Source of the DNA: a virus
DNA: 64,000 nucleotides
UHGV virus genome: UHGV-1558314
Reading direction: 5' to 3' (one strand)
The notes below the pieces were generated by a model, which saw nothing but the letters and a program-made list of their open reading frames with translations, was not told the DNA's origin and ran no database searches. Position numbers and translations under genes: made by a program. Below are positions 10,636 to 59,722 of this stretch, piece by piece. Numbering within the stretch: position 1 is the stretch's first letter; the number at the start of each line of letters is the position of its first letter.

Positions 10636-10664
10636 ATTATATATTGATATATTACAACATTTGT
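10636..10664 (-). promoter_or_regulatory. conserved phage promoter motif (ATGTTGTAATAT...TATAAT)
   Basis: Minus-sense AAATGTTGTAATATATCAATATATAATATAAAACCTCTACAACAATG; the -10 TATAAT lies about 20 nt before the ATG. Confidence 0.45.
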
Positions 10665-10710
10665 TGTCAATTTGCACAATTGTTGTTAACAAAATGCATT
10701 ACATTGACAA

Positions 10711-14404: not shown

Positions 14405-14626
14405 TTATGTTCGAATATATGAGAACATATATTATTTGTAAAGATATAATACTACAAACAGCACACATTTGCACTTTGACATAACTGATTGAGTATCAAT
14501 CAATTATGAGTTTATAAAAGTTTTTCAAAAGTAGGGTGTTGTTGTTTGAGTAGAGTGTTGTTAATGCTGTCAGCTGTCTTGTTAGCATTATCGATTGCTT
14601 GCAAACTATCAGCCGTCATAGAACAT

Positions 14627-21358: not shown

Positions 21359-21386
21359 TTATATGTTGATATTGTACAACATGCAA
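21358..21386 (-). promoter_or_regulatory. sigma-70-like promoter TTGCAT-N17-TATAAT with conserved TTGTACAA core
   Basis: Minus-sense TTGCATGTTGTACAATATCAACATATAAT, about 18 nt upstream of the ATG at 21339. Confidence 0.55.
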
Positions 21387-21418
21387 AATGCACTTGCATT
21401 TTGATACAACGTATGTCA

Positions 21419-25124: not shown

Positions 25125-25153
25125 GAGGATGGATTTTATATGTTGATATTGTA
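25125..25153 (-). promoter_or_regulatory. sigma-70-like promoter TTGCAT-N17-TATAAA (second copy of conserved motif)
   Basis: Minus-sense TTGCATGTTGTACAATATCAACATATAAA; spacer identical to the copy at 21358-21386. Confidence 0.5.
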
Positions 25154-25195
25154 CAACATGCAAAATGTATTTGCATTTTGATACAACATATATTG

Positions 25196-25411
25196 TCATT
25201 TTGCACAGTCTGATGCAATTAAATCTTTGTCAAAGCATTCATCTATAATGTCTTCAATAAGATACGCTTCGACATTGTTAAGCTTCAAGATATCTACGAG
25301 TTTTGCTTTGATATCGCAAGCTAATGCAGATTCGACTGTATGCAATATGACTGATGATACGACATGCTTGTCTGTCATCATTTGTAATTGCTGTGGTGTT
25401 ACTCTACTCAT
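25196..25411 (-). CDS. hypothetical small protein (71 aa)
   Basis: ORF track; 4-nt overlap with the upstream kinase gene. Confidence 0.35.
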   Translation of the reverse strand: MSRVTPQQLQMMTDKHVVSSVILHTVESALACDIKAKLVDILKLNNVEAYLIEDIIDECFDKDLIASDCAK

Positions 25412-30845: not shown

Positions 30846-30874
30846 CATATATGAATATATTGTACAACATGTAT
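30846..30874 (-). promoter_or_regulatory. conserved promoter motif (ATACAT-N17-TATATG variant)
   Basis: Minus-sense ATACATGTTGTACAATATATTCATATATG, 16 nt upstream of the ATG at 30829. Confidence 0.45.
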
Positions 30875-30970
30875 TGAGCTTTTGCACAACATATGTTGTT
30901 AAAATATCATCATTGTACAACATAAAGCGCATATTTGCACGTTGTGTTGCTAAAAATATTGTTATTGTAC

Positions 30971-37337: not shown

Positions 37338-37398
37338 GTTATTTGTATATGTATTGTGCAACATGCATATTCATATTGTATATGAATATGATACAACA
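37338..37398 (-). promoter_or_regulatory. two tandem copies of the conserved promoter motif upstream of the SSB gene
   Basis: Minus-sense TTCGCATGTTGTATCATATTCATATACAAT and ATATGCATGTTGCACAATACATATACAAAT. Confidence 0.45.
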
Positions 37399-37416
37399 TG
37401 CGAATATCATTTGCAC

Positions 37417-40846: not shown

Positions 40847-40886
40847 TTTATGATATTGTTAAGATATCTACAAAAAGCAATGCACT

Positions 40887-41183
40887 CTACAAAAAGCAAT
40901 GCACCATAAAACCCAAGAACATAATTATTGCAGGCTGCATGATGCAATACATAAAGAACTGTGCAGCAATCGGCAATTCATTGAACTTGTTGACTGTGTC
41001 ATGATTCTTGAACAATGCCAGTACAAATGATATCCCAATTGCATGCTTAAGCGATAACGCAGTCAATGCGGGCCACACAGGCATCACAAACCACTCCCAG
41101 AAGTTCATAATAATGCAGCCATTCAGAATATAGCCTAACAGCATGAACATAATGCATGCAACAGTTGTCAGAAAGTTTTTCAT
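40887..41183 (-). CDS. small membrane protein (3 TM; holin-like candidate)
   Basis: ORF track; three hydrophobic segments in a 98-aa protein. Confidence 0.4.
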   Translation of the reverse strand: MKNFLTTVACIMFMLLGYILNGCIIMNFWEWFVMPVWPALTALSLKHAIGISFVLALFKNHDTVNKFNELPIAAQFFMYCIMQPAIIMFLGFMVHCFL

Positions 41184-41477: not shown

Positions 41478-42401
41478 TTACATTGAGATGTTAAGAATTC
41501 GCTTGACTACAGAATCGATATCATTGTTTGCAGCATTGCACAGTTCCATGCGAACATTAGAATCAATGAACAAGTTATGAAACGTTGACGCAGCTTGAAC
41601 AAGATGACACCAGATTGCTCGTCTACACATTGCAAGTTCTCTGTCAGCTTTGCTGCATTGCATGAGATACGAGTTTGCTCTATCACTGTAATATGACTGA
41701 GCATACTTGCATTGACGTTCAGCGTCATTTACAATGTACATGTATGGAGTCTTGACGTCAAAGTAAATTTTGCAATACAATGACTTGTCATCAATTGCAA
41801 AGTCATCAATATTGACAGTCAAATCTGTCATTGCATACGTCAAACCTCTGTCATGCAAATATGCAAACATTGCAGTATAGCATTGATGCAATGTAGCAAT
41901 CAATTCACATTTGTCAGTTGACTGAACAACTTTGTATGCTGCTTTGATTGCCTTTGCATATATGAGCTGCAAACACAGCTCTTTGCGACGCAATGCTTTG
42001 CGTTCAAATTGTCGCTCATATTTGATGTGCTTACGTATGCGTTTGCGTTCTGTAAGCAATTTCGACAAGTCAATACGAATGTATTTTGATACATTTGTAA
42101 CAGCGGTGTCAATACTGTGCCACTGTTCAATGTCGTCAATGTCAAGTTCATGCGCAAGTGAATGTGACACTCTGCCGTACATGTATAAGACTTTGCAGTT
42201 GTCATCGCATAATGCATACATACACCATGATGACAGTTCAATGTCATGCTCAAATGTGGCAAAATCAACTTCTACTGCAATATTTGCGTTTGTGCATATG
42301 CATTTTTGAATGTCAATGTCACTTAAGTACCACTTGAAAAATGAATCGACTTCTGCAGAATGTTGACTTATGATGCGCTTGAACAGCTTGTTCGATTTCA
42401 T
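41478..42401 (-). CDS. hypothetical protein (307 aa)
   Basis: ORF track. Confidence 0.45.
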   Translation of the reverse strand: MKSNKLFKRIISQHSAEVDSFFKWYLSDIDIQKCICTNANIAVEVDFATFEHDIELSSWCMYALCDDNCKVLYMYGRVSHSLAHELDIDDIEQWHSIDTAVTNVSKYIRIDLSKLLTERKRIRKHIKYERQFERKALRRKELCLQLIYAKAIKAAYKVVQSTDKCELIATLHQCYTAMFAYLHDRGLTYAMTDLTVNIDDFAIDDKSLYCKIYFDVKTPYMYIVNDAERQCKYAQSYYSDRANSYLMQCSKADRELAMCRRAIWCHLVQAASTFHNLFIDSNVRMELCNAANNDIDSVVKRILNISM

Positions 42402-42688
42402 GCTCGTATAAGTTTGATGACACAGTGCCTACAAGTAGCAAAAGTACTCAATATTGTTTCTACTTTGACACTGTACTGCACATCAATGACACGATATGTG
42501 CCACACAATGCAGACATTTCTTGACGACGTTCTGCAGGTACATTGACACTGTCTGTCAAATTGATGATTGCACCAATCTGCATAGATGACATGACTGCAA
42601 ATTGTTCTGGACCTACTTCTGCTTTGCGATATGCGACTTGTTTGTTGTTTTCGCAAATACTGAATGCTACTGTATAATCTGGTGTCAT
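42398..42688 (-). CDS. hypothetical protein (96 aa)
   Basis: ORF track; 4-nt overlap. Confidence 0.4.
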   Translation of the reverse strand: MTPDYTVAFSICENNKQVAYRKAEVGPEQFAVMSSMQIGAIINLTDSVNVPAERRQEMSALCGTYRVIDVQYSVKVETILSTFATCRHCVIKLIRA

Positions 42689-42700
42689 GATAGTCGCGTT

Positions 42701-43180
42701 TTATTCATTATCGTCATCATATCCCATGCAATCTTCAAGACTTGCAAAGTCATCATCAAAGTCATCGAATTCAGGCTCTTTATTGCACCATTTGTAAGGT
42801 GGATTGTTGAGCAATTCAAGCTCTATTGCATTTGACTGTGCAGAAATCGGAACATATTCGAATGCTTCGACTGACATATCAAATTTGATGCAATGCAGCC
42901 ACGGAAACATATCAGTGTCCTCATGCACAATGGGCTGACGAACGTAGTCTTTCATTGCAATGAACTTGCTGCTGTTGTCCCAGTCTTCAATAGGAATTTC
43001 AAACTGTGATATGGTCGTATGACAATCGTCAAAGAAATTGCAGGATACGCCTACAATAACGTGCGTGTCTGTACGTTGACGTTCTATTGCAAGAAAGTCG
43101 TGTTTCTTGGAAAGATGAACTTCTCCATGCTTCTCTAAAAAGATTTTAAGAAGCTCTTTGTTAATGTCATTGATATTCAT
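42701..43180 (-). CDS. hypothetical acidic protein (159 aa)
   Basis: ORF track; acidic C-terminus. Confidence 0.4.
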   Translation of the reverse strand: MNINDINKELLKIFLEKHGEVHLSKKHDFLAIERQRTDTHVIVGVSCNFFDDCHTTISQFEIPIEDWDNSSKFIAMKDYVRQPIVHEDTDMFPWLHCIKFDMSVEAFEYVPISAQSNAIELELLNNPPYKWCNKEPEFDDFDDDFASLEDCMGYDDDNE

Positions 43181-43202
43181 TGCTGTAGAGATTTTATGAT
43201 GT

Positions 43203-43514
43203 TTAATACTGAGTTTTTGCAGATATAGCTACTTTAATTGCTGCTTTAATTTGTTCGATTGCATCTTGTGAGAACAATTCTGGCACTGCTAAATAGTGAT
43301 ACCATGATGTTGGCGCTGCCTGCATATCAGTTCGTTTAATTGCGAACCGAAGTTCTTTTGGTGAACCAAGGCAACCCATATATTGGCAGCTTATTAGCTT
43401 AACTTGCACATTGTTAATGCTGCTATGAATAGCAAGATGAGACAGATTTATTCTGTCATAGAATTTTAGATGCTTGAGTTGTTTTTCAATTGCTTTGAAT
43501 GCGTTTGTATTCAT
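43203..43514 (-). CDS. hypothetical protein (103 aa)
   Basis: ORF track; promoter/5' UTR (AAACCTCTACAACA-ATG) near-identical to that of gene 10397..10618. Confidence 0.4.
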   Translation of the reverse strand: MNTNAFKAIEKQLKHLKFYDRINLSHLAIHSSINNVQVKLISCQYMGCLGSPKELRFAIKRTDMQAAPTSWYHYLAVPELFSQDAIEQIKAAIKVAISAKTQY

Positions 43515-43587
43515 TGTTGTAGAGGTTTGTATACTATATTGATATATGATAATTGTACTACAAATTTATCAAATTTGCACTGATTTA

Positions 43588-43696
43588 ATATATAATATGT
43601 CAATAAATTTCACATATAAAGTCTTTTCGCTTATGAAAACTACTCAACTCTGGTTTGAACGCCAGCAGTCAATCGCGGGGGGGCTCTTCGTGACAC
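43588..43696. repeat. left arm of a near-perfect inverted repeat of about 109 bp
   Basis: tatataatatgtcaataaatttcacatataaagtcttttcgcttatgaaaactactcaactctggtttgaacgccagcagtcaatcgcgggggggctcttcgtgacac; its reverse complement occurs at 46611-46721 with one small indel. Confidence 0.85.
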
Positions 43697-43749
43697 AGGC
43701 ATGCGCATATACGTGCGTGACAATGCTGATAACATTGTTAATGGGCTAA
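43633..43749 (+). other. short leader ORF (MKTTQLWFERQQSIAGG...) containing a G7 tract, in the +1 frame relative to downstream gene 43701..44333
   Basis: ATG at 43633; G7 at 43677-43683. The gene A frame is open from 43659 through the G tract, so a -1 shift or one extra G fuses leader and gene. Confidence 0.5.
43677..43683 (+). repeat. homopolymeric G7 tract (candidate slippage site)
   Basis: cgcgggggggctc read directly. Confidence 0.9.
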
Positions 43750-44333
43750 CTTGCTATTTGCACTGTATTGAAACAGGTCGAACACTTCAAAGAGACTTGC
43801 ACACAAGCAATAATGGTGATGGCGTCACATTTTACATAACTGGTGATGACTATAAGCAATTAGTCGGCTCAACAAAAGACGCACAATTTTATCTTATTGA
43901 CACGCCTGATGCTGCAGATATGTCTTGGTCATCTGCAGCATTTACACTTAGATATGGCGCAGATATAGTTAACAACACACTAAATGTCAATATTGAAGCG
44001 TTCAAATCATGCGAAGTAACAATAACTAACAGTGGCAATACATGCAGTTGCACCGCAATGCTTGAATCTGCATTGCCAGTGGCAATTAAACTGTCAACAA
44101 TTTGCAATACATCAGTAGCATCTAATGTCGATGTGTCAGTTAACATAGCTGCAAATAGCTTGACTGCTAATTTTAGAGTTGGCAATAGCTTATCTGCAAA
44201 ATTGACGCATGTCGGCATATGGTCTATTGCTAATGCTTCTTATGTTTCACCAATATATGAGGGTGCTATAATTGTGAAAACACTGAACGACATATTTCAC
44301 GTGTTCATAACAGATAAGACAACACTTGGCTAA
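43701..44333 (+). CDS. cassette gene A (210 aa), candidate variable fibre or receptor-binding protein
   Basis: ORF track; first plus-strand gene after the strand switch; starts 5 nt after the IR. Confidence 0.5.
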   Translation: MRIYVRDNADNIVNGLTCYLHCIETGRTLQRDLHTSNNGDGVTFYITGDDYKQLVGSTKDAQFYLIDTPDAADMSWSSAAFTLRYGADIVNNTLNVNIEAFKSCEVTITNSGNTCSCTAMLESALPVAIKLSTICNTSVASNVDVSVNIAANSLTANFRVGNSLSAKLTHVGIWSIANASYVSPIYEGAIIVKTLNDIFHVFITDKTTLG

Positions 44334-44368
44334 GTGTACATATCTTACAACATTCAAACATATAGCAT

Positions 44369-44425
44369 ATGAAAACTCCACAATTTTGGTTTGAGCGTCA
44401 ACAAGGGCTAGCGGGGGGGCTCTAA
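44369..44425 (+). other. leader ORF copy B (MKTPQFWFERQQGLAGGL, 18 aa) with G7 tract
   Basis: Diverged at nucleotide level from the IR copy but conserved as peptide. Stop immediately after the G tract, while the gene B frame opens immediately before it. Confidence 0.5.
44413..44419 (+). repeat. homopolymeric G7 tract
   Basis: gcgggggggctc read directly. Confidence 0.9.
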
Positions 44426-44462
44426 ATTAGTCTACCTGCAACTTGTTATTGGCGACGCTTCG

Positions 44463-44891
44463 TTGTACAACTTTGGCACTACTGAAACAATGGCGATACA
44501 AGGTACAATATCGCTTGACAATGTCACAGTTAACATACCAACGTCAGGCTTTCCTATCAAAATGATGGAATGCCGCGGTGGTGAAACTCATGCAATTGGT
44601 GCGTTAATGATGCCAAAAGCTTATGACTACTCAAACTTTGCTGCAAAAATTGGTTTTGGCTGCTATGCAGCAGATGGTCGTGGCACTGGCAACGTTTACA
44701 ACATCAATGTGTATGCCAACATTAACAACACAAGCCCTGGTGGTAATCCCATACTGTTAACTTCTATGGCATGGCAATATCCATTAGGCGTTGGTGATAA
44801 GCTTACATTGCCAATGTCAAATCCATCTGTCAAAGTTAACAATGGAGATATCGTGTCAATCATACTTAAGAATGCAAGGAAAGTCAGCTAA
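44463..44891 (+). CDS. cassette gene B (142 aa; start uncertain)
   Basis: ORF track uses a TTG start; in-frame ATG at 44490. The frame is open upstream to the G7 tract (RGGSKLVYLQLVIGDASLYNFGTTET...). Confidence 0.45.
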   Translation: MYNFGTTETMAIQGTISLDNVTVNIPTSGFPIKMMECRGGETHAIGALMMPKAYDYSNFAAKIGFGCYAADGRGTGNVYNINVYANINNTSPGGNPILLTSMAWQYPLGVGDKLTLPMSNPSVKVNNGDIVSIILKNARKVS

Positions 44892-44975
44892 CTGACAGAT
44901 GCATCACATATAAGCAATGCTCCACTGAGAAATCTCAGTGGAGCATTTTTTGTGCTGTTTGGCAATTTTAGACAT

Positions 44976-45386
44976 CTATATGCTATAGTATGCCCTATTG
45001 ACAAGCAACACATAGTCACCACACAGTAATGCAGCGTACGACATCATGCAATCATCTTGCGGCGCACTGACATCTGCATATCCTTTTGCGTACATAACCA
45101 TGTTGTTGTGCACAAAGTCAACTTTAGCATTTGCATAAATTGCATCAGTGCCACGGTCAACTATAAATGATTCACCGCGTTCAAGCGCATTTGCATTAAT
45201 TGTCACGGTAGATGTACCAGCATTAATGCTGTACAATGTATTTGGCACAGCATTAATGCTGGTACTTGATACCGTCATAAACTTAGCAGCAAATATGCTA
45301 TCAACCAAATCACCAAATTGTGCTGAGGTGGGTTTATCTCCGGTTTCAAAATACGTTTTGAGTACCGAACGTGTTTGAACTGCCAT
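44976..45386 (-). CDS. tail-fibre-like protein (cassette gene D, 136 aa)
   Basis: N-terminal LKTYFETGDKPTSAQFGDLVDSIF resembles a motif I recall from phage tail fibre/collar proteins. Not searched. Confidence 0.45.
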   Translation of the reverse strand: MAVQTRSVLKTYFETGDKPTSAQFGDLVDSIFAAKFMTVSSTSINAVPNTLYSINAGTSTVTINANALERGESFIVDRGTDAIYANAKVDFVHNNMVMYAKGYADVSAPQDDCMMSYAALLCGDYVLLVNRAYYSI

Positions 45387-45404
45387 ATGTTTCGATGTTT
45401 TAAG

Positions 45405-45587
45405 TTATGCAATGTGACATGAAAGCAACACTGCAAACTTTTCATCGAATGCAATGTCACCTACGTTATAACAAGAGATTGAGCCAGATATGTGACCCCC
45501 CCAATTCAATTTGAATGTCATAAAGCTTATGAGTTTGTAAATGTTTGTTTTGTTTATATATTTTGACTGCCCATATGTACATATCAA
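45405..45587 (-). other. small upstream ORF (60 aa) containing a G7 tract, in frame with and 6 codons upstream of gene D
   Basis: ORF track; ...FKLNWGGHISG... spans the G7 tract. Confidence 0.3.
45496..45502 (-). repeat. homopolymeric G7 tract (C7 on plus strand)
   Basis: gtgaccccccccaatt read directly. Confidence 0.9.
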
Positions 45588-45658
45588 AACAACATCTTAG
45601 TTGTTTTGCATCTTGCATCAAAACAACATCTTAGTTGTTTTGCATCTTGCATCAAAAC
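45583..45658. repeat. tandem direct repeat (34-bp unit, 2.2 copies), each unit containing a 9-bp-stem hairpin
   Basis: atcaaaacaacatcttagttgttttgcatcttgc repeated; CAAAACAAC / GTTGTTTTG inverted repeat inside each unit. Confidence 0.8.
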
Positions 45659-45895
45659 TCATAGGCATTGCATTCAAAGATGAAGATTTTACAGCAGACA
45701 TTGCACTTGATAACGCGTCATTTTATGATGGCCAAACTGCATGGCTAACTGGAAAGCTTCTGGCAGCATTGTGTTAAGTATAAAACAGTTACATTGAAAG
45801 CTAACACAACAGTAAACATCGCCATTTAATGCACATCAAAAACTCCACTGAACAATTAAGTTCAGTGGAGTTTTTGATGTGTAGTGTGCAAAATA

Positions 45896-46549
45896 CTACA
45901 ACATATTCCAGTTTGTTATGTCATACATGTTGAAGCTGAACGCTGATGTGATGTATCCAAGAGTAGTCAAGATGTCCACACCAACTACAGGGTCATTTGC
46001 AATAAGCAAAATACAGTTAGTGACAGACGTATCGACCATATTGTCTGCTTGAAAATCATTGTGCATCAACCAGTCAGCAAAGCAGATGTCATAGTACACA
46101 GGATTGCCTGCAAATACTTTATCATTTCCAAATGCTTCTGATGGGTGCGACAATGTAGATGCAAGCAGTTGAATGTCTTCATCTGTGCAAGACGATTTAA
46201 TGTCATCAAGCACAATTGCTACACGCTGCTCATTTGTCTCTGAATCACCTCTATGAATTTCATGAATCCAAGGCAAGCATGCAAGTGCATCACCACATGT
46301 CAAATTGACATTATCAAGTGTCTCGCCTTGACCTGCGTAGCAATATAAAGTGGAGCCAGTGCCATAACGTAGACAGTCATTTATGCTGACATTATCAAGA
46401 TACACTGAACAAATTGACAATGCACCTGCACCAAGCCTGTTTGCAGGAATTGTCAACTTATATGTTGGCACGCCATTTGACTGCACTGTAATAGGCGAGC
46501 CCGCTAATAATTCACCAGTGTCAGCATCATAGCATTCGACTTCTTGCAT
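45896..46549 (-). CDS. cassette gene C (217 aa), candidate variable fibre or receptor-binding protein
   Basis: ORF track; its frame is open upstream through the IR G7 tract (TPAVNRGGALRDTIISGTINKADGSLLEAAYAT-MQEVECYD...). Confidence 0.5.
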   Translation of the reverse strand: MQEVECYDADTGELLAGSPITVQSNGVPTYKLTIPANRLGAGALSICSVYLDNVSINDCLRYGTGSTLYCYAGQGETLDNVNLTCGDALACLPWIHEIHRGDSETNEQRVAIVLDDIKSSCTDEDIQLLASTLSHPSEAFGNDKVFAGNPVYYDICFADWLMHNDFQADNMVDTSVTNCILLIANDPVVGVDILTTLGYITSAFSFNMYDITNWNML

Positions 46550-46610
46550 AGTCGCATATGCAGCTTCAAGTAGTGAACCATCTGCTTTGTTGATAGTGCC
46601 GCTGATAATA

Positions 46611-46721
46611 GTGTCACGAAGAGCCCCCCCGCGATTGACTGCTGGCGTTCAAACCAGAGTTGAGTAGTTTTCATAAGCGAAAAGACTTTTTGTATGTGAA
46701 ATTTATTGACATATTATATAT
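46611..46721. repeat. right arm of the inverted repeat (reverse complement of 43588-43696)
   Basis: Direct comparison of both arms; includes the leader ORF start (ATG at 46674, minus) and a G7 tract. Confidence 0.85.
46624..46630 (-). repeat. homopolymeric G7 tract (C7 on plus strand)
   Basis: gagcccccccgcg read directly. Confidence 0.9.
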
Positions 46722-46734
46722 CAGGCAGCAATAT

Positions 46735-46775
46735 GCACAAAAAAGAAGAGCATCGGTTAAAAACCGATGCTCTTT
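46735..46775 (-). terminator. rho-independent terminator after BACON-like gene
   Basis: Stem GAAGAGCATCGGTT / AACCGATGCTCTTT, followed on the minus strand by TTTTTTGTG. Confidence 0.55.
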
Positions 46776-46822
46776 CAAGTTCTGCTGTGAACTGTTCAAT
46801 AGTGTAATCTTGTTGTACTCGA

Positions 46823-47437
46823 TTACGATACAGTCCACGGGCAGTTTGCGGTAACCGTAACCGTAACGGCAGGAGTACCGGCCTGAGGAATCGTGATTTC
46901 CTGCTTGTCGAGTACCAGCGTCGGGTCACCAGCAGCCTGAACGATTGCAATCTGAGCAGTCTGGGCACCGTTGGCAGTTACCAAAATCGATGTCGTGCGC
47001 TCGTTAATCGTCAAGTTGGCAGGAATGTCAAGCTCAATGCTGAAAGCAAACTCGGCGTTGGCACCAGGGTCACCAGTGATTGCTACGCCATTGTTGGTTT
47101 CTACACCAGCAACTGCGTACTTTTTAGGCAGTTCGATAACAAACTCGCCGCCCTCAACGATGCTGAACGTCAGCTTCGATGAGTTAGATACACCGGTTAC
47201 GGTAAGAGTACCGCCAGCTTTAGGAGCTGACATCTCTGAGCCGTTGTCAAATGACACGAACTCAGCCTTTGCAGTCTGCTGTACATTGTACGTTGAAGGC
47301 GCTGCAATACCAGCACCCTGAACGGTTACAACACCAGTACGTGCAATACGACCAGTGTGGGCGTCAGCAGAGTTGGAAATTGAACCATTACCCGAACCAG
47401 ATGTCGGGCTAAGTTTCAACCATGCGGGTTTAGCCAT
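46823..47437 (-). CDS. BACON/Ig-like domain protein (204 aa)
   Basis: N-terminus MAKPAWLKLSPTSGSGNGSISNSADAHTGRIARTGVVTV fits the BACON pattern (W-L...SP-x-SG-x-G...R-x-G-x-VTV) and ends ...VTVTANCPWTVS. Codon usage is G/C-richer than its neighbours. Confidence 0.5.
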   Translation of the reverse strand: MAKPAWLKLSPTSGSGNGSISNSADAHTGRIARTGVVTVQGAGIAAPSTYNVQQTAKAEFVSFDNGSEMSAPKAGGTLTVTGVSNSSKLTFSIVEGGEFVIELPKKYAVAGVETNNGVAITGDPGANAEFAFSIELDIPANLTINERTTSILVTANGAQTAQIAIVQAAGDPTLVLDKQEITIPQAGTPAVTVTVTANCPWTVS

Positions 47438-47495
47438 TGTTCAAAATTGTTATTAAGTGAGTGTATATGTTTAACACAAATTCGATGATTGCTCA

Positions 47496-48095
47496 TCAAA
47501 GAATTTTCCAAGAAGCGTTTGATGTCAAATTCATTGTGATTGTCGTGCCATCATCATCAACTGTCACAGATTCTGTACTCAGCACAAGAGTTGCTGCAGC
47601 AGCTGCTTGAGTAATGCTAACATTCAATGATTTGCCACCAGGAGTTGTCACTGTCAATACAAATGATTTCTGTTCAATTGTCAAATTTTGCGGTATTGTA
47701 GCTTCAATTGACCATGCAAACTTTGCAATATATCCAGGGTCATTTGCAATTGCTGTGTCATTTGTTGCAGCGACGCCATTTGCTGTGTACGCAGTCGGAA
47801 TGCTAAGATTCGGATTTGTAGTTGCAAACTTAAGTTTTGCTGCGTTAGACTCACCAGAAACAACAATTTTTGTGGTTGCCGCAGAAACATTGTATGATGT
47901 TGTGCCAGATACAAATTCTGCAAGAGCAGCTTGGTTGATTGTTGCTTGCTTTGTAACTGTTGGTGTGGTCTTCGTTTGCACAGTCGCAATTGTGCTACGA
48001 ATGCCTCTGCCGGTATGAGCTCCTGCAGTAAATGCCAGGATATCATTACCCTCACCAGACATTGGTGAACACTGTGCCCATATAGCTTTTGCCAT
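47496..48095 (-). CDS. BACON/Ig-like domain protein (199 aa), paralog
   Basis: N-terminus MAKAIWAQCSPMSGEGNDILAFTAGAHTGRGIRSTIATV parallels 46823..47437 and 48167..52495. Confidence 0.5.
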   Translation of the reverse strand: MAKAIWAQCSPMSGEGNDILAFTAGAHTGRGIRSTIATVQTKTTPTVTKQATINQAALAEFVSGTTSYNVSAATTKIVVSGESNAAKLKFATTNPNLSIPTAYTANGVAATNDTAIANDPGYIAKFAWSIEATIPQNLTIEQKSFVLTVTTPGGKSLNVSITQAAAAATLVLSTESVTVDDDGTTITMNLTSNASWKIL

Positions 48096-48166: not shown

Positions 48167-51100
48167 TTATCGAACAAGGAATGATGTACCAACAACCATA
48201 TTCGGGATTGCCAAGCCATTGCCAGACTGGCTTACTGCAACTGTGCCACTTGTGTAGCCTGACAATGCAGCAGTAATTGTTGCCGACCTGCTGTTATCTG
48301 AACCCCAGTTGTTTGCAGCTGACAATGTCGAACCGCTGATTGTGAATGCACCATTGTTCGATGAGTACGTTGGAGTAACCGCAGCATCTGATGTTGTAGA
48401 CTGACCTGTCGTGTACTTTGTGACAGTTCGACCTGTCGTAGACAATGTTGCAGTGCCACCAGCAGCCCCAAAGCTTGTAACAGTTGAGCTGACAATCAGA
48501 GTCTTCGTAGTCGAAGTCACACTGTTGGCTTCCTGTGTAGCAGTGATTGCTTTTGAGCCAGTTTGACCATTCAACGCAACCGTCATATTGACTGTAGCGG
48601 TTCTTGCAGAACCAGCAGTTGTGCCACGATTTGCAGCAGTCAATGAACCGGTTGTACTACTGTTAAGCGTAAAGCCAGTAGTTGTAGCCATACTGTATGA
48701 AATTGTACCGCCAGATGTAATAGTAGTTTTTGAACCACTTGTGTACGTTGCTGTCTGCGAGTATGCTGGCGTGCCTGTTGGAGTCTTTGTTGCACCTGCT
48801 GCAGCAAATGTTGCATATGATGTTGCTGTAGTAACTGTGACTGCGCTGTATGATACACTGTTAGCTGCTTGATAAACATCAAGAGCTTTTGTAGCAGTCT
48901 TAGACCCTTCACCAGTAGCAGTTGCAGTCAAAGTGCCAATCTTTGTACGAGCTTTGACTGTAGTGCCAAGCGATGATGCGCTGACTTTTGTGCTATACGC
49001 AATGCTAACTGAACCTGGCCTTGTGCTGCCAGACGTATATGTAATTGTCTGTGATGCACTGATGCCAGACATTGATGCAACTTCACCGCCACCAGCAGGA
49101 ATATCTGACACAGTTCCACCAGAAATTGTAACCGCGCCATATGTCGTAATTGCATTTGCAGCTTGGTACACATCGACTGCTTTTGTTCCAGATTTGCCAT
49201 TGACTGTTACTGTAACAGTAGATGTTGTAATCTTTGTGCGGGCTTTAGCAGTAGTGCCAAGTGAACTACCAGACACTGCGCCAGTAGACGTTGTTACACC
49301 AGTGCCAGACCATGATTTGCTGCCACCAGACGTAACTGTCTGTGTTGAGCCACTTGACCACATAACTGATTGACTGAATGACACTGAAGGCGTAACTGAG
49401 CCACCCTTTGCAGGAACATCGCTATAAGTCATCGAAACTGTGGGCGTACCATATGTAGCAGCATTAGCATTTTGAGATGCAGTAGCAGTCTTTGTTCCAC
49501 TGATGGCTTTTGTGCCTGCAGCATTGTATGACGCAGTAGGCGTCCATGTAGCTGTTACAGTCTTTGTGACTGTCAGCGATGTAGTTGCGCCACTTGCAGT
49601 AGTGCCTTTTGATGATGCGGTTATAGCACCAGTAGATGTATTGAGTGCAGTGAACAATCCTGATGCGCCTGGCCAACTATATGATGTTGTAGTTGACAAT
49701 GAACCATACGTAGATGCTGGCGCAGTAGTTGAAGTACTGCCACTACTAAAATGGTATGTTACTGTGTTTGCACCATTTGACGGTGTAGATGTTCCGCCAC
49801 CTGCAGCAATTGCAGGATATGACATCGAACCAACTGCAATATTGAGTGCAGTCACATAGTTGCCTGCCTGATAAATCGTGGCAGACTTGCTGGCAGATTT
49901 GCCATTCATTGTGACTTTAACAGTCAGTGTGCCTGCAGTAGTCTGGTTAGATATTGCGGTGTCTTTTGATTGCGCAGTGACTGTTGACGTATACTCAATT
50001 GTTCCGCCGCTTGTCAGTGTTTCTGTCGTCTTTTCACCAGTAGCATATGTCGTAGTTTTGACCTGCGAGTAAGTTACTGTGCCAGATTTTACAGAACCTC
50101 CGCTTGCTGCAATGATAGTTGCAGACGGCGTCAAGTTAACTGTGATATCGCTATATGTAACTGTGCCAGCAGATTGAGCTGCTTGATAAACATCTGCAGC
50201 TTTTGATGCAGACTTGCCATTGAGTGCTACTGTGACAGTCAATGTGCCAATCTTTGTTCGTGGCTTAACTGTTGTGCCAAGTGATGATGCAGTGATACCT
50301 GCTGCTGGACTGTATGAAATTGTTGCACCAGTAGTGATGTTCTGTGTTGAAGTTGATGTGTATGTTGCAGTCTGCGAATATGACACATTGCCGCTCTTAA
50401 TTGTACCACCAGTTACAGGAATATCTGCTACAGTGAAGCTTGAAATTGTAACTGCGCCATATGACACAGTGTTTGCAACTTGCTTGACTGTGCAAGAACC
50501 AGTTTTTGTAACACCGCCCTCAGTATATGAGCCAGAAATTGTAATGCTGCGTTCTGCGCCTACGACTGTTGTGCGATTTGCTGCAGTTACTGTAGCAGTC
50601 GACAATGTAAAGCCAGTTGCTGAACCGCTAAGTGTTGCAGATACTGCAGCAGATGACGTTGAGCCTGATGCATATGTGTATGACGCTGTTGAAGTGATTG
50701 TAGTTGAACCGCCACCAGCTGCCAATGTTGCAGCGCCAGGTGTCAATGTCAAGCCATTCAGCGTCTTTGAGTTTGCAGTTTGTGTTGCAGTAGCAGTTTT
50801 TGTAGCAGACTTGCCATTGATTGCTACCGTAACTGTGACAGCATTTGAAGCATCAGTAGAGCCTACATATGATGTGCCCATTGACGTTACAGTCAATGCG
50901 CCACTTGTCGTATTCAATGTCCAGCGTGACTTAGCAGTCATTGCATAAGACAATGTAGCGCCACTTGTCAATGTGCCACCTGAGCCAGCTACGCCATTCC
51001 AAGTCCAAACTTGTGAATATGAAACAGTTGGGTTTGATGTACCACCAGCAGGAGCAATGTTAGCATATGAGAATGTTCCAATGACAGGCGTTGCATAGAC

Positions 51101-52495
51101 TTTAGCACCTGCAGCTTGGTTGAACGTAATATCTTTTGATGCAGACTTACCATTTGCAGTGACTGTCAAGGTGACAACAAACCCATTACGTGCAACAGTA
51201 GAATTGTTGTTTGTCACTGTGACATTCAAGCCAGACAAGCTGTAGCCTGTTGCAGCAGTTTTGACGGCAGCAGTCCATATGCCGCCTGACGTGTTACTAT
51301 CAGTTGAGCCGCTGCTGTATGTCATTGACTGCGTAAATGTTGCAGATGCATTAGCTGCAACAGTTTGACCTGCTACTGCAAGAGCAACTGGTGTTGTCTT
51401 TGTAATGACTGGTGTGCCGTATGTAATGCTGTTGGCTGCTTGTGTAATTGATACAGTAGCAGTTGCATTGCCATATGACGCTGTGCCGCTAAATGACCGA
51501 GCATCACCGACAGTCTTACCACGATTTGCAGATGTTACAGAATTTGCAGATATTGTAAAGCCTGTTGCAGTGCCTGTAATTGTTGGCTTGACATTTGTTT
51601 CAGTAGATGTAACAACACCGTTCCATGTCACAGTGTACGTACCAGTGATGGTTGATGTTCCACCTGCTGCAGTATGACTTGTTGAATATGTGTTCAAAGC
51701 AAGTTTGTACACAACTGAACCTGCAGCTTGTGAGCATTTAACGGTCTTCGATAATTCATGACCACTTACAGTCAGTGTTGGTGTAACTGCTGCAGTTGAC
51801 GTGTTGTTCGGTGTATTGACAGTGATTGTTGCAGGACCTGTGCCAGATGCTTTTGAGACTGACCAACCTGCAGGTACGCCCGAAATTGTCCATGCAAAGT
51901 CAGGATTACAAGAAATTGCGAATGTCTTCGATTCACCCTTTGCAACAAATGACAAAGTTTCTGGTGATACTGCCAATGTTGCACTTGCACCAGCTTGATT
52001 TACTGTAAATGTTGCAGACTTGCCACCAGGCGTTGACAATGTGAAAGTGAATGCCTTTGCAGCGATTGCAGTATGTGCAGCAATCTGCACTCGTACAATG
52101 ACTTCAAATTCTGCATTGACACCAGGGTCATTGTCAAAATTTGTATTAAGCGCATAATCTTTGCTTGCAACAGTTACGCCAAGCACTGTGCCACTTGCAG
52201 TACCGCCAGTACTGCCAAGCACAAGTTTTTGTGCATTTGTGACACATTTCAATGTTGCAATAGTGCCACCATTTGACGCAATGTTTGTAGATGCAACTGT
52301 AGCTCGTATAGTTTCACCAGGAGACTCTTGCAATACTGCACAGTTTTCAGTTACTACTGGTGAACCTGTAGTTGTTTGCGCAGTAAAGCTGCCAGACCTG
52401 TTATTTCGACCAGTATGCACAGATGCTTTGACAGACAACTGTGAGTTGCCTGTGCCAACATCAGGTGTAACTGTCAACCAAGTAGGCTTTGCCAT
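48167..52495 (-). CDS. giant Ser/Thr/Gly-rich fibre or adhesin-like protein (1442 aa) with N-terminal BACON-like domain and about eight tandem Ig-like repeats
   Basis: N-terminus MAKPTWLTVTPDVGTGNSQLSVKASVHTGRNNRSGSF; repeated T[L/V]TV-x-x-NGKS-x-[ST]K...YQAAN modules of about 100 aa. Plus-strand ORFs here are antisense artefacts. Confidence 0.65.
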   Translation of the reverse strand: MAKPTWLTVTPDVGTGNSQLSVKASVHTGRNNRSGSFTAQTTTGSPVVTENCAVLQESPGETIRATVASTNIASNGGTIATLKCVTNAQKLVLGSTGGTASGTVLGVTVASKDYALNTNFDNDPGVNAEFEVIVRVQIAAHTAIAAKAFTFTLSTPGGKSATFTVNQAGASATLAVSPETLSFVAKGESKTFAISCNPDFAWTISGVPAGWSVSKASGTGPATITVNTPNNTSTAAVTPTLTVSGHELSKTVKCSQAAGSVVYKLALNTYSTSHTAAGGTSTITGTYTVTWNGVVTSTETNVKPTITGTATGFTISANSVTSANRGKTVGDARSFSGTASYGNATATVSITQAANSITYGTPVITKTTPVALAVAGQTVAANASATFTQSMTYSSGSTDSNTSGGIWTAAVKTAATGYSLSGLNVTVTNNNSTVARNGFVVTLTVTANGKSASKDITFNQAAGAKVYATPVIGTFSYANIAPAGGTSNPTVSYSQVWTWNGVAGSGGTLTSGATLSYAMTAKSRWTLNTTSGALTVTSMGTSYVGSTDASNAVTVTVAINGKSATKTATATQTANSKTLNGLTLTPGAATLAAGGGSTTITSTASYTYASGSTSSAAVSATLSGSATGFTLSTATVTAANRTTVVGAERSITISGSYTEGGVTKTGSCTVKQVANTVSYGAVTISSFTVADIPVTGGTIKSGNVSYSQTATYTSTSTQNITTGATISYSPAAGITASSLGTTVKPRTKIGTLTVTVALNGKSASKAADVYQAAQSAGTVTYSDITVNLTPSATIIAASGGSVKSGTVTYSQVKTTTYATGEKTTETLTSGGTIEYTSTVTAQSKDTAISNQTTAGTLTVKVTMNGKSASKSATIYQAGNYVTALNIAVGSMSYPAIAAGGGTSTPSNGANTVTYHFSSGSTSTTAPASTYGSLSTTTSYSWPGASGLFTALNTSTGAITASSKGTTASGATTSLTVTKTVTATWTPTASYNAAGTKAISGTKTATASQNANAATYGTPTVSMTYSDVPAKGGSVTPSVSFSQSVMWSSGSTQTVTSGGSKSWSGTGVTTSTGAVSGSSLGTTAKARTKITTSTVTVTVNGKSGTKAVDVYQAANAITTYGAVTISGGTVSDIPAGGGEVASMSGISASQTITYTSGSTRPGSVSIAYSTKVSASSLGTTVKARTKIGTLTATATGEGSKTATKALDVYQAANSVSYSAVTVTTATSYATFAAAGATKTPTGTPAYSQTATYTSGSKTTITSGGTISYSMATTTGFTLNSSTTGSLTAANRGTTAGSARTATVNMTVALNGQTGSKAITATQEANSVTSTTKTLIVSSTVTSFGAAGGTATLSTTGRTVTKYTTGQSTTSDAAVTPTYSSNNGAFTISGSTLSAANNWGSDNSRSATITAALSGYTSGTVAVSQSGNGLAIPNMVVGTSFLVR

Positions 52496-59621: not shown

Positions 59622-59648
59622 ATCAGTTAATTTGTTTGTATATGTATT

Positions 59649-59722
59649 CGAATGTGCACACATGAGAATAGGTCTCTTCGAATGTGCACATATGAGAATA
59701 AGTCTCTTCGAATATGCGCACA
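59649..59722. repeat. tandem direct repeat (30-bp unit, about 2.5 copies) with TGTGCACA palindromes
   Basis: cgaatgtgcacacatgagaataggtctctt / cgaatgtgcacatatgagaataagtctctt / cgaatatgcgcaca; related atttgtgcgcatatc at 59611-59625. Confidence 0.8.

What the first reader, a model, noticed from the sequence alone, without database searches (positions are those of the whole stretch)
45583..45658. Tandem 34-bp hairpin repeats between cassette genes C and D
Two and a bit copies of atcaaaacaacatcttagttgttttgcatcttgc, each holding a 9-bp-stem hairpin (CAAAACAAC / GTTGTTTTG), sit between the end of gene C and the upstream region of gene D. No U-tract follows in either orientation, so these look more like tandem protein-binding sites or RNA structures than simple terminators.
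Basis: seen in the sequence. Interest (0 to 1): 0.45.

Follow-up and report, generated by a model that had tools for sequence, protein, structure and literature searches.

The report
Variable tandem palindromic repeats in a phage promoter region
The two-and-a-bit 34-bp hairpin repeats are real and belong to a small repeat family, specific to one lineage of ~175-kb human-gut phages, that sits just upstream of gene starts and changes copy number between strains. It is most likely a gene-control element rather than a terminator, and it is of modest interest on its own.

Summary
Positions 45583..45658 hold 2.2 perfect copies of a 34-bp unit, each with a 9-bp-stem hairpin, and the motif is unique in the 64-kb window.

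Nearly all genes here are on the minus strand. The array lies in a 509-bp spacer, about 170 bp after the strong terminator of the 217-aa gene and 61 nt upstream of a short leader ORF that precedes the 136-aa gene.

Related ~175-kb gut-phage contigs carry the array at the same place, but with 1 to 5 units of several types (28, 29, 33 and 34 bp). The loops vary. The invariant part is a polar 22-bp core, GTTTTGCATYTTGCATCAAAAC, that joins neighbouring hairpins.

In most relatives the array lies between two divergent gene starts. A second array lies between a DNA-ligase gene and the next gene. In both cases an ATG follows 35-36 nt after the last core.

This context rules out simple terminators. 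It favours a cis-regulatory DNA element (tandem factor-binding sites or tandem promoters, about 0.4). RNA-level hairpins (about 0.2) and a functionless minisatellite or recombination junction (about 0.2) are not excluded. The window's copy has lost its plus-strand target gene.

The more striking feature is nearby. All four G7 runs in the window sit at the 5' ends of the four shuffled cassette genes.

The parts
45583..45616 (+). Repeat unit A, copy 1 (ATCAAAACAACATCTTAGTTGTTTTGCATCTTGC). The hairpin arms are at 45585-45593 and 45600-45608.
45617..45650 (+). Repeat unit A, copy 2, identical to copy 1. The hairpin arms are at 45619-45627 and 45634-45642.
45651..45658 (+). Partial third unit (ATCAAAAC). 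Every array in every relative ends with such a partial unit, so each array ends with a complete 22-bp core.
45603..45624 (+). Conserved polar 22-bp core 1 (GTTTTGCATCTTGCATCAAAAC). It spans the right arm of one hairpin, the linker and the left arm of the next.
45637..45658 (+). Conserved polar 22-bp core 2.
45522..45582 (-). A 61-nt AT-rich spacer between the array and the ATG of the leader ORF. It is the candidate promoter region for the minus-strand unit and is 96-97% identical in relatives.
45405..45521 (-). A 38-codon leader ORF (MTFKLNWGG...) carrying a G7 run (45496-45502, read as C7 on the + strand). It lies upstream of the 136-aa gene. The run is G10 in relatives.
44976..45386 (-). The 136-aa cassette gene downstream of the array on the minus strand. 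Its N-terminus weakly resembles a Flavobacterium-phage 'structural protein'. The N-terminus is conserved and the C-terminus varies between relatives.
45651..45700 (+). Degenerate remnant of the plus-strand 5' module (AAAACTCATAGGCATTGCATTCAAAG...). It is an inverted copy of 45522-45536. In relatives this side carries an intact gene that starts MQIPRNWGG 35-36 nt after the last core. The window has no ATG and no G run here.
   Evidence: (I7, I5)
45832..45881 (.). A perfect 22-bp-stem bidirectional intrinsic terminator (-37.4 kcal/mol) that ends the 217-aa gene. It is the real terminator of this spacer.
45896..46549 (-). The 217-aa cassette gene upstream of the spacer on the minus strand.

Best explanation
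The array is a lineage-specific cis-regulatory DNA element. It consists of tandem copies of a polar 22-bp core (GTTTTGCATYTTGCATCAAAAC) separated by short, self-complementary, freely varying spacers, and it lies in the transcription-start region of cassette genes. The cores are most likely recognised on double-stranded DNA by a phage (or phage-modified host) transcription component. They would act either as tandem operator or activator sites, or as tandem promoters of a rare class. This would control the gene that begins 35-36 nt after the last core on the + strand, and probably also the divergent leader-ORF/136-aa unit on the - strand. Copy number changes by slippage or unequal recombination and may tune expression. 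In this window the + strand target gene has been deleted, so the array now borders only the upstream region of the 136-aa gene. What is shown: the anatomy, the conservation pattern, the positions relative to genes, the copy-number variation and the non-terminator character. What is inferred: the binding of a factor, promoter activity and any tuning effect.
For: (1) Position. In relatives array 1 lies between two divergent ATGs, with the leader ORF 61 nt to one side and the MQIPRNWGG gene 36 nt to the other. Array 2 lies 2 nt after the NAD-ligase stop and 35 nt before the next ATG.
(2) Polarity and spacing. Both arrays have the same polarity relative to the downstream gene. The distance from the last core to the ATG is the same in both (35-36 nt), read directly from the sequences. 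The distance from TTTTGCAT to the ATG (40-41 nt) matches that of the phage's TGCAAA-N11-TGTWGTA promoters at 21400 and 25177.
(3) Conservation. The core is 97-100% conserved across 11 unit types and both loci. The loops are 63% conserved, vary between 5 and 6 nt, and the stems vary from 6 to 9 bp.
(4) No promoter of the phage's main class lies in the spacer, although each cassette gene is bracketed by terminators and therefore needs its own promoter.
(5) This phage often has tandem promoter-proximal duplications. There are paired TGCAAA-class promoters 30-53 nt apart. There are also 19-bp and 30-bp tandem repeats just upstream of other genes.
(6) Copy number and unit type differ between strains whose flanks are 92-97% identical: one A unit; AA; AD; B'B''AAA; A'BB; and E A* B*.
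Against: No transcription start, binding protein or expression data exist. The core matches neither the Bacteroidota TTTG/TAnnTTTG promoter form (checked by eye) nor the phage's own TGCAAA-N11-TGTWGTA class (PWM score -4 against at least 31 for members). Only two loci per genome carry the core, and no solitary cores exist in the window. That is few for a promoter class. A more distant relative has the ligase and the downstream gene only 48 bp apart with no array, so the array is dispensable there. The window's array has lost its + strand gene yet persists, which also fits a neutral relic. The whole upstream module is highly conserved (96-97%), so the identity of the units between genomes is not evidence of special constraint.
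Confidence: 0.4

Rival explanations
1. The element acts at the RNA level. The array is transcribed as part of a 5' UTR or an intercistronic region, and its tandem AU-rich hairpins act as mRNA stabilisers, nuclease-processing sites, weak attenuators or binding sites for an RNA-binding regulator.
For: Array 2 lies between two co-oriented, closely packed genes with no other signal between them, so it is almost certainly transcribed. Hairpin potential is kept in all unit types: 96% of cells are paired, and there is one compensatory C-G to U-A change. Unit E pairs with a G-U wobble on one strand only (-7.8 against -1.8 kcal/mol). The linker can also serve as a constant 10-nt loop.
Against: Stability ranges from -1.6 to -10 kcal/mol, and the B units are only -4 to -5. 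Covariation is weak (39 of 500 shuffles). The best-conserved part is the single-stranded linker plus the outer arms, not the pairing as such. In array 1 the transcripts on the two strands diverge, so no single strand is favoured.
Confidence: 0.2
2. The array is a functionless minisatellite or recombination junction. A short palindromic sequence expanded by slippage and persists at a hotspot where cassettes are swapped, in the manner of PeSL junctions. It has no regulatory role of its own.
For: The sequence to the right of the array differs in each relative. The window has 170 unique bp, L006 and L018 have an intact gene, and in L010 the terminator follows after about 45 bp. Copy number and unit order are unstable. 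Degenerate units exist (A*, B', C', E). The array is absent from the homologous spacer in a distant relative. The window's copy has outlived the gene next to it.
Against: The 22-bp core stays near-invariant even in degenerate arrays and across two unlinked loci. Both loci share the same polarity and the same distance to the next ATG. Neutral decay should blur the linker as much as the loop.
Confidence: 0.2
3. The array is a set of replication-origin iterons next to an AT-rich unwinding region.
For: The units are direct repeats. They flank an AT-rich stretch (45535-45582). Large phages can have several origins, and array 2 lies in the replication module beside the ligase gene.
Against: The period is not constant (28, 29, 33 or 34 bp) and is not a multiple of the helical repeat. 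The copy number can be as low as 1 (L030). The array is absent in a relative. There is no adjacent initiator gene and no skew feature.
Confidence: 0.05
4. The units are ordinary intrinsic terminators or tandem weak terminators.
For: They are hairpins. Some unit variants are followed by CAUUUUGC. Array 2 starts 2 nt after a stop codon.
Against: There is no U-tract in the window's units. The stems are AU-rich (-9 to -10 kcal/mol against -37 for the neighbouring real terminator). The terminator scan does not detect them. In relatives array 1 lies between divergent gene starts, and in the window it lies 170 bp after a strong terminator.
Confidence: 0.03
5. The array mimics a CRISPR repeat, as an RNA anti-CRISPR ('Racr') or a mini-array.
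For: When read out of phase, GTTGTTTTGCATCTTGCATCAAAACAAC is a 28-nt palindrome-ended sequence that superficially resembles GTTG...CAAC repeats. That resemblance is recalled from memory. The concept is described in PMC10651486, of which only the abstract in the listing was read.
Against: The 'spacers' would be 6 nt long and identical. The 22-nt core has no exact match in one genome each of 185,579 species. No cas context was found.
Confidence: 0.02

Closest known systems
PeSL (promoter-early stem-loop) regulatory cassettes of T4-type phages (PMC2839356, PMC4122927)
   Same: Both are short, conserved, dispersed intergenic motifs that combine a transcription signal with a stem-loop. Both lie in a hyperplastic region of small, non-conserved genes and sit exactly at the borders of insertions, deletions and replacements between close relatives.
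   Different: PeSLs are single units made of a strong sigma-70-type promoter plus an effective terminator, and they occur many times per genome. Here the units are tandemly iterated, the stems are AU-rich with no U-tract, no recognisable promoter consensus is present, and only two loci per genome carry the core.
Tandem palindromic operator arrays in divergent phage promoter regions (for example lambda OR1-3; from general knowledge)
   Same: Both consist of several adjacent copies of a roughly 20-bp site with inverted-repeat ends, placed between divergently transcribed genes.
   Different: The core here is polar: only its outer 6+6 bp are palindromic and the central 10 bp are a direct heptad repeat. 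Copy number varies between strains. No cognate repressor is identified. A second array lies inside a co-directional gene string.
REP/BIME repetitive extragenic palindromes of enterobacteria (from general knowledge)
   Same: Both are roughly 30-35-bp extragenic palindromic units, sometimes clustered and often placed just after stop codons, with proposed roles in mRNA stability and protein binding.
   Different: REPs occur in hundreds of copies and cluster in alternating orientation. Here there are two loci, the copies are strictly head-to-tail, and the linker is conserved.
Promoter-region VNTRs that tune or phase-vary divergent genes (for example the Haemophilus influenzae hifA/hifB TA repeats; from general knowledge)
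   Same: Both are variable-number tandem repeats between divergent genes, and in both cases other hypermutable tracts lie nearby (here, G runs at the cassette 5' ends).
   Different: Here the unit is 28-34 bp rather than 1-7 bp. No evidence shows that the copy number changes -35/-10 spacing or expression.

Membership tests
Intrinsic (Rho-independent) terminator | A G+C-rich stem directly followed by a U-tract. | tested here: not met
   The stem has 2 G-C pairs out of 9, and the following bases are CATCTTGC (+) or ATGCAAGA (-). The scan does not list it. Its energy is -8.8 to -10.2 kcal/mol, against -37.4 for the adjacent real terminator.
Intrinsic (Rho-independent) terminator | A position at the 3' end of a transcription unit. 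| tested here: not met
   In relatives array 1 lies between two divergent ATGs. In the window it lies 170 bp beyond a strong terminator. Only array 2 follows a stop codon.
PeSL cassette | A strong sigma-70-like early promoter within the unit. | tested here: not met
   Only weak 9-of-12 consensus matches overlap the array, at background frequency (17 found against 15.3 expected). The likely host is Bacteroidales, where this consensus does not apply.
PeSL cassette | A stem-loop that is an effective terminator. | tested here: not met
   See the terminator rows above. Function was not measured.
PeSL cassette | Many dispersed copies that flank indels in hyperplastic regions. | tested here: inconclusive
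   The array does sit at an indel or replacement junction. However, only two loci carry the core in a 174.6-kb relative and only one in the window.
This phage's TGCAAA-N11-TGTWGTA promoter class | A match to the motif at the correct spacing, oriented with the downstream gene. | tested here: not met
   The motif has 8 exact sites, all on the - strand and upstream of genes, against 0.28 expected. A PWM built from 9 sites scores members at 31-40, but the array scores -4 (+ strand) and -10 (- strand). The - strand of unit A reads TGCAAA-N10-TGTTGTT, a near miss.
Palindromic operator array | Inverted half-sites at a fixed spacing. | tested here: inconclusive
   In the hairpin phase the spacing between CAAAAC and GTTTTG is 6, 11 or 12 bp depending on the unit. 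In the linker phase, GTTTTG-N10-CAAAAC is constant in all units.
Palindromic operator array | A cognate sequence-specific DNA-binding protein. | not testable with these tools
   The neighbouring proteins have no Pfam or PHROG match.
Iteron-type replication origin | At least 3 direct repeats with constant, helically phased spacing beside an AT-rich region and an initiator gene. | tested here: not met
   Periods of 28, 29, 33 and 34 bp are mixed within single arrays. Copy number falls as low as 1. An AT-rich flank is present, but no initiator gene is nearby.
CRISPR array / RNA anti-CRISPR repeat mimic | Repeats separated by unique spacers of about 30 nt, or a repeat that matches a host CRISPR repeat. 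| tested here: not met
   There are no spacers. The core has no match in genome contigs. The stem-only scan, in the part of its listing that could be read, gave single palindromes only (the listing was truncated at 120 loci).
Structured RNA family (Rfam) | A match to a curated covariance model. | tested here: not met
   Nothing in 43400-46900 approaches a gathering score. The best hits are spurious miRNA hits on the terminator.

The most novel reading that the evidence does not exclude
The arrays are the operator or promoter sites of a dedicated phage switch. Together with the G runs at the 5' end of every cassette gene, this switch would stochastically diversify which of several interchangeable, probably host-recognition, cassette proteins a virion population makes. 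Gain and loss of 28-34-bp units would set the expression level of the two divergent units. That would be a VNTR-plus-homopolymer phase-variation system in a Bacteroidales gut phage.
Probability: 0.12. Interest if true: 0.65.

Novelty: new variant of a known kind. Interest (0 to 1): 0.35.

Why it matters
Taken alone, the array is a modest find. It is a lineage-specific regulatory-looking repeat with no homolog in curated RNA families, and its core has no exact match in the one-genome-per-species scan. Its value lies in what it marks. It sits at the control region of a cassette island in an abundant but uncultured ~175-kb human-gut phage, where gene content, repeat number and G-run length all differ between samples. 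If the cores are shown to bind a factor or to start transcription, they would give a first handle on how this phage group regulates its variable genes, and a defined 22-bp site for identifying the regulator.

Tried and rejected
- **Close cultured relatives.** A megablast of 43000-48000 against 50,697 phage records found no match, so no annotated close relative exists. Protein-level relatives are only about 29% identical jumbo phages of Chryseobacterium, Tenacibaculum and Sphingomonas.
- **Protein families.** Pfam and PHROG searches of the flanking and cassette proteins gave nothing except BACON domains in 46823..47437 and 48167..52495.
- **RNA families.** The Rfam search gave nothing.
- **Host-type promoter.** The Bacteroidota form (TTTG ... 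TAnnTTTG) was checked by eye on both strands of all unit types, and no unit fits.
- **Phage promoter class.** The array is not a member of the TGCAAA-N11-TGTWGTA class (PWM).
- **Solitary cores.** There are none elsewhere in the window at up to 3 mismatches.
- **CRISPR mimicry.** The idea is not supported.
- **Hairpin covariation.** It is too weak to argue for structure.
- **Special sequence constraint on the units.** This argument was rejected because the whole upstream module is 96-97% identical between genomes, more than the coding genes at about 92%.
- **Array as a recombinational enhancer.** This is a crude test.
- **More relatives.** Searches of IMG/VR with flanking proteins returned only one contig. 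The relatives came instead from exact-protein look-ups of cluster members.

Full report
**1. The observation**

TRF finds 45583..45658 with period 34, 2.2 copies and 100% identity. Its score of 152 is the highest in the window. Each copy holds a perfect 9-bp inverted repeat, CAAAACAAC / GTTGTTTTG, around a 6-nt loop.

The 24-nt hairpin, allowing up to 3 mismatches, occurs nowhere else in 64 kb, and shuffles give 0.00 matches. Each unit folds at -8.8 kcal/mol on the + strand and -10.2 kcal/mol on the - strand. No U-run follows the stem on either strand.

**2. Setting in the window**

Almost all genes are on the minus strand. The array lies in the longest spacer of the region, 45387..45895 (509 bp). 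Read on the minus strand, the order is as follows:

- The 217-aa gene (45896..46549).
- A perfect 22-bp-stem bidirectional terminator (45832-45881, -37.4 kcal/mol).
- About 170 bp of sequence unique to the window.
- The array.
- A 61-nt AT-rich stretch.
- A 38-codon leader ORF (45405..45521, MTFKLNWGG...) that contains a G7 run.
- The 136-aa gene (44976..45386), followed by another terminator (44916-44947).

The phage has no close cultured relative. Its helicase is about 29% identical to those of jumbo phages of Chryseobacterium, Tenacibaculum and Sphingomonas. Two neighbouring proteins carry BACON domains.

Related contigs come from human-gut metagenome assemblies and reach 175-181 kb. I therefore take the window to come from a ~175-kb gut phage. 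BACON domains are Bacteroidetes-associated, which suggests a Bacteroidales host; that part is inference.

**3. The array in relatives**

A pattern scan and exact-protein look-ups of cluster members retrieved the homologous spacer from many independent assemblies. The array is always present at this place, but its make-up differs:

| Source | Array 1 composition |
|---|---|
| Window | A A + partial unit |
| L030 | A + partial unit |
| L018-22, L024, L027, L028 | A D + partial unit |
| L006 | B' B'' A A A + partial unit |
| L010 | ...A' B B + partial unit (left side cut by the contig end) |
| L031, L032 | E A* B* + partial unit |

The unit types differ as follows:

- Unit D is 33 bp and has the loop TAAAT instead of ATCTTA.
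- The B units are 28 bp and have only a 6-bp stem.
- Unit E is 29 bp.

Short-read contigs often break inside the array (L008; L010), as expected for a true tandem repeat. The flanking genes of these relatives are 90-93% identical to the window, and the left flank of the array is 96-97% identical. The array is therefore far more changeable in structure than its surroundings.

**4. What is conserved**

I aligned the 11 distinct unit types by hand:

| Segment | Agreement with the column majority |
|---|---|
| Outer arms (CAAAAC / GTTTTG) | 100% / 97% |
| 8-nt linker (CATYTTGC) | 97% |
| Inner arm bases | 84-89% (absent from B units) |
| Loop | 63% (length 5 or 6 nt) |

The invariant element is therefore the 22-bp stretch GTTTTGCATYTTGCATCAAAAC, which runs from one hairpin into the next.

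This core is polar. Only its outer 6+6 bp are palindromic, and the middle is a direct repeat, TTGCATC TTGCATC. Every array ends with a complete core.

A formal pair count on the hairpin gives 96% of cells paired. There is only one pair with a compensatory change (C-G to U-A, in array 2), and 39 of 500 shuffles score as high. The hairpin is compatible with the data, but covariation does not demonstrate it.

**5. A second locus**

The 174.6-kb IMG/VR relative carries a second array about 41 kb away. It has two 33-bp units (C), with arms CAAAACAAT/ATTGTTTTG, plus a partial unit.

This array starts 2 nt after the stop codon of an NAD-dependent DNA ligase gene and ends 35 nt before the ATG of a Cys-rich 122-aa gene. 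It is conserved in seven further assemblies.

It is absent from a more distant relative, whose downstream protein is 63% identical. There the two genes are 48 bp apart. No other core exists in the relative, in the window, or in any other fetched locus.

**6. Position relative to genes**

In most relatives array 1 lies between two divergent gene starts. The leader ORF of the 136-aa gene is 61 nt to one side. On the other side a gene beginning MQIPRNWGG starts 36 nt after the last linker. L010 lacks the MQIPRNWGG gene, and there the terminator follows about 45 bp after the array.

The two 5' regions are inverted paralogues of each other (AAACTCA...ATG...AAYTG(n)). The window keeps only a degenerate remnant of the right-hand one, at about 45651-45700. 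It is detected as inverted repeat I7 and has no ATG and no G run. The window is therefore a deletion variant.

In array 2 the next ATG lies 35 nt after the last linker, with the same polarity. From TTTTGCAT the distance to the ATG is 40-41 nt in both arrays. The phage's main promoters at 21400 and 25177 show the same distance from their own TTTTGCAT.

**7. What it is not**

- **Terminator.** It fails on composition, on the missing U-tract and on context.
- **Main phage promoter class.** TGCAAA-N11-TGTWGTA has 8 exact sites, all on the minus strand and upstream of genes, against 0.28 expected. The PWM scores members at 31-40 and the array at -4.
- **Host promoter.** By eye it does not fit the Bacteroidota TTTG/TAnnTTTG promoter form.
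- **Known RNA family.** Rfam gives nothing.
- **CRISPR-like element.** The core has no match in one genome each of 185,579 species. Loci that share only the stem are single palindromes in all the rows I could read of a listing that was truncated at 120 loci.
- **Iteron origin.** This is unlikely because the period is mixed and the copy number can be 1.

**8. Most likely mechanism**

Four features fit a cis-regulatory DNA element best, at about 0.4:

- The core is polar and invariant in sequence.
- Its distance to the next ATG is the same at two unlinked loci.
- Array 1 lies between divergent starts that lack any other recognisable promoter.
- This phage often has tandem promoter-proximal duplications. 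It has paired promoters 30-53 nt apart and other tandem repeats at 40867-40904 and 59647-59722 just upstream of genes.

The element would be either tandem sites for a transcription factor or tandem promoters of a rare class. Unit number would change by slippage.

An RNA-level role remains open at about 0.2, because array 2 must be transcribed. A functionless minisatellite at a cassette-exchange junction also remains open at about 0.2. It would explain the synteny break at the right edge, the degenerate units, the absence from a relative and the array's survival after loss of its neighbour. None of the three can be separated without transcript-end mapping or binding assays.

**9. Comparison with known systems**

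The nearest described system is the PeSL cassette of T4-type phages. PeSLs are short promoter-plus-stem-loop units at the borders of indels in hyperplastic regions (PMC2839356, PMC4122927; abstracts read). The resemblance lies in the role as a junction and in the mix of a transcription signal with a hairpin.

The array fails PeSL membership on three counts: the sigma-70 promoter, terminator function and copy number. It also resembles operator arrays, REP/BIME elements and promoter VNTRs in single respects only. I rate it a new variant of a known kind, namely short dispersed intergenic regulatory or palindromic repeats in phage genomes.

**10. Context worth more than the finding itself**

- **G runs.** The only four G/C runs of 6 or more in the 64-kb window are all G7. 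All lie on the coding strand at the 5' end of the four cassette genes between 43677 and 46630.
  - Three follow a conserved 17-codon leader, MKT(T/P)Q(L/F)WFERQQ..AGG. The paralogues of this leader differ by synonymous changes, so it appears to be translated.
  - In the consensus sequences the leader is almost always out of frame with the main ORF.
  - Run lengths differ between samples: G6 or G7 for the MKT leaders, G9 to G11 for the MQIPRNWGG gene, and G7 against G10 for the leader ORF of the 136-aa gene.
- **Inverted repeats.** The cassette block 43697..46610 is bounded by ~110-bp inverted repeats. One 3.5-kb contig (L009, 5x coverage) joins them in the inverted order. This could be a real inversion or an assembly chimera.
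- **Invertase.** No Hin-type invertase was detected in the window by a crude test.

Noticed in passing
window 43677-43683 (+), 44413-44419 (+), 45496-45502 (-), 46624-46630 (-): These are the only four G/C homopolymers of 6 or more in the whole 64-kb window. All are G7 on the coding strand at the 5' end of the four cassette genes. Three follow a conserved leader, MKT(T/P)Q(L/F)WFERQQ..AGG, whose paralogues differ by synonymous changes. In the consensus the leader is out of frame with the main ORF; G8 would fuse cassettes 1 and 4, and G6 would fuse cassette 2. Run lengths differ between samples (G6/G7; G9 to G11; G7 against G10). This suggests hypermutable phase variation or programmed slippage in probable host-recognition cassettes.
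   Followed up: partly
window 43588-43696 and 46611-46723; L009:2469-2581: Inverted repeats of about 110 bp, each carrying the MKTT leader and its upstream region, bracket the 2.9-kb cassette block that contains the hairpin array. Contig L009 joins window 42379-43696 directly to the reverse complement of 46723-45897, which means the block is inverted there. This is either a real inversion or a chimeric low-coverage assembly. All other relatives have the window's orientation.
   Followed up: partly
window 10653-10676, 14450-14473, 21371-21400, 25152-25205, 30863-30939, 37353-37415, 43556-43579 (all on the - strand): A phage-specific promoter-like motif, (G)TGCAAAT-N11-TGTTGTAcAATAT, has 8 exact sites against 0.28 expected. 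All sites are on the minus strand, 30-60 nt upstream of replication-module genes, and they often occur as tandem pairs 30-53 nt apart. It does not resemble the sigma-70 or the Bacteroidota consensus.
   Followed up: partly
L011:7339-7415 (IMG/VR contig positions about 41.7 kb); L033-L039 about 1437-1540: A second array of the same family (33-bp units) lies between the NAD-dependent DNA ligase gene and a Cys-rich 122-aa gene in relatives. This region is outside the window. The array is absent from the same spacer in a more distant relative (L040, L041).
   Followed up: yes
window 59647-59722 and 40867-40904: Two other perfect or near-perfect tandem repeats (30 bp x 2.5 and 19 bp x 2) also lie immediately upstream of minus-strand gene starts. 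The first sits right after a terminator. Tandem duplication of promoter-proximal DNA seems to be a habit of this genome.
   Followed up: partly
window upstream of 14387 and 21339; upstream of 10618 and 43514: Pairs of unrelated genes share near-identical leaders directly before the ATG: ACATAATCTAAATCTCATTTAGA in one pair and AAACCTCTACAACA in the other. These could be shared translational or RNA-level signals.
   Followed up: no
window 45832-45881, 44916-44947; L031:2245-2295: The terminator hairpins of the cassette region share a core (CTCCACTGA...TCAGTGGAG) and are flanked by A and T runs, so they work in both directions. They form a small terminator family that travels with the cassettes.
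   Followed up: no
window 41603-42378; L018, L030 and L031 between the 217-aa and 136-aa genes: Cassette content differs strongly between strains that are about 92-95% identical. L009 lacks the 307-aa gene. L018-type genomes carry two extra genes (164 aa and 187-248 aa). L031 carries three small genes behind a TGCAAA-class promoter, plus a duplicated 136-aa paralogue.
   Followed up: partly
window 48861-50290 (inside the 1442-aa gene 48167..52495): Cross-matches of about 71-77% identity between several 107-117-bp stretches point to internal repeated domains in the large protein that has an N-terminal BACON domain.
   Followed up: no
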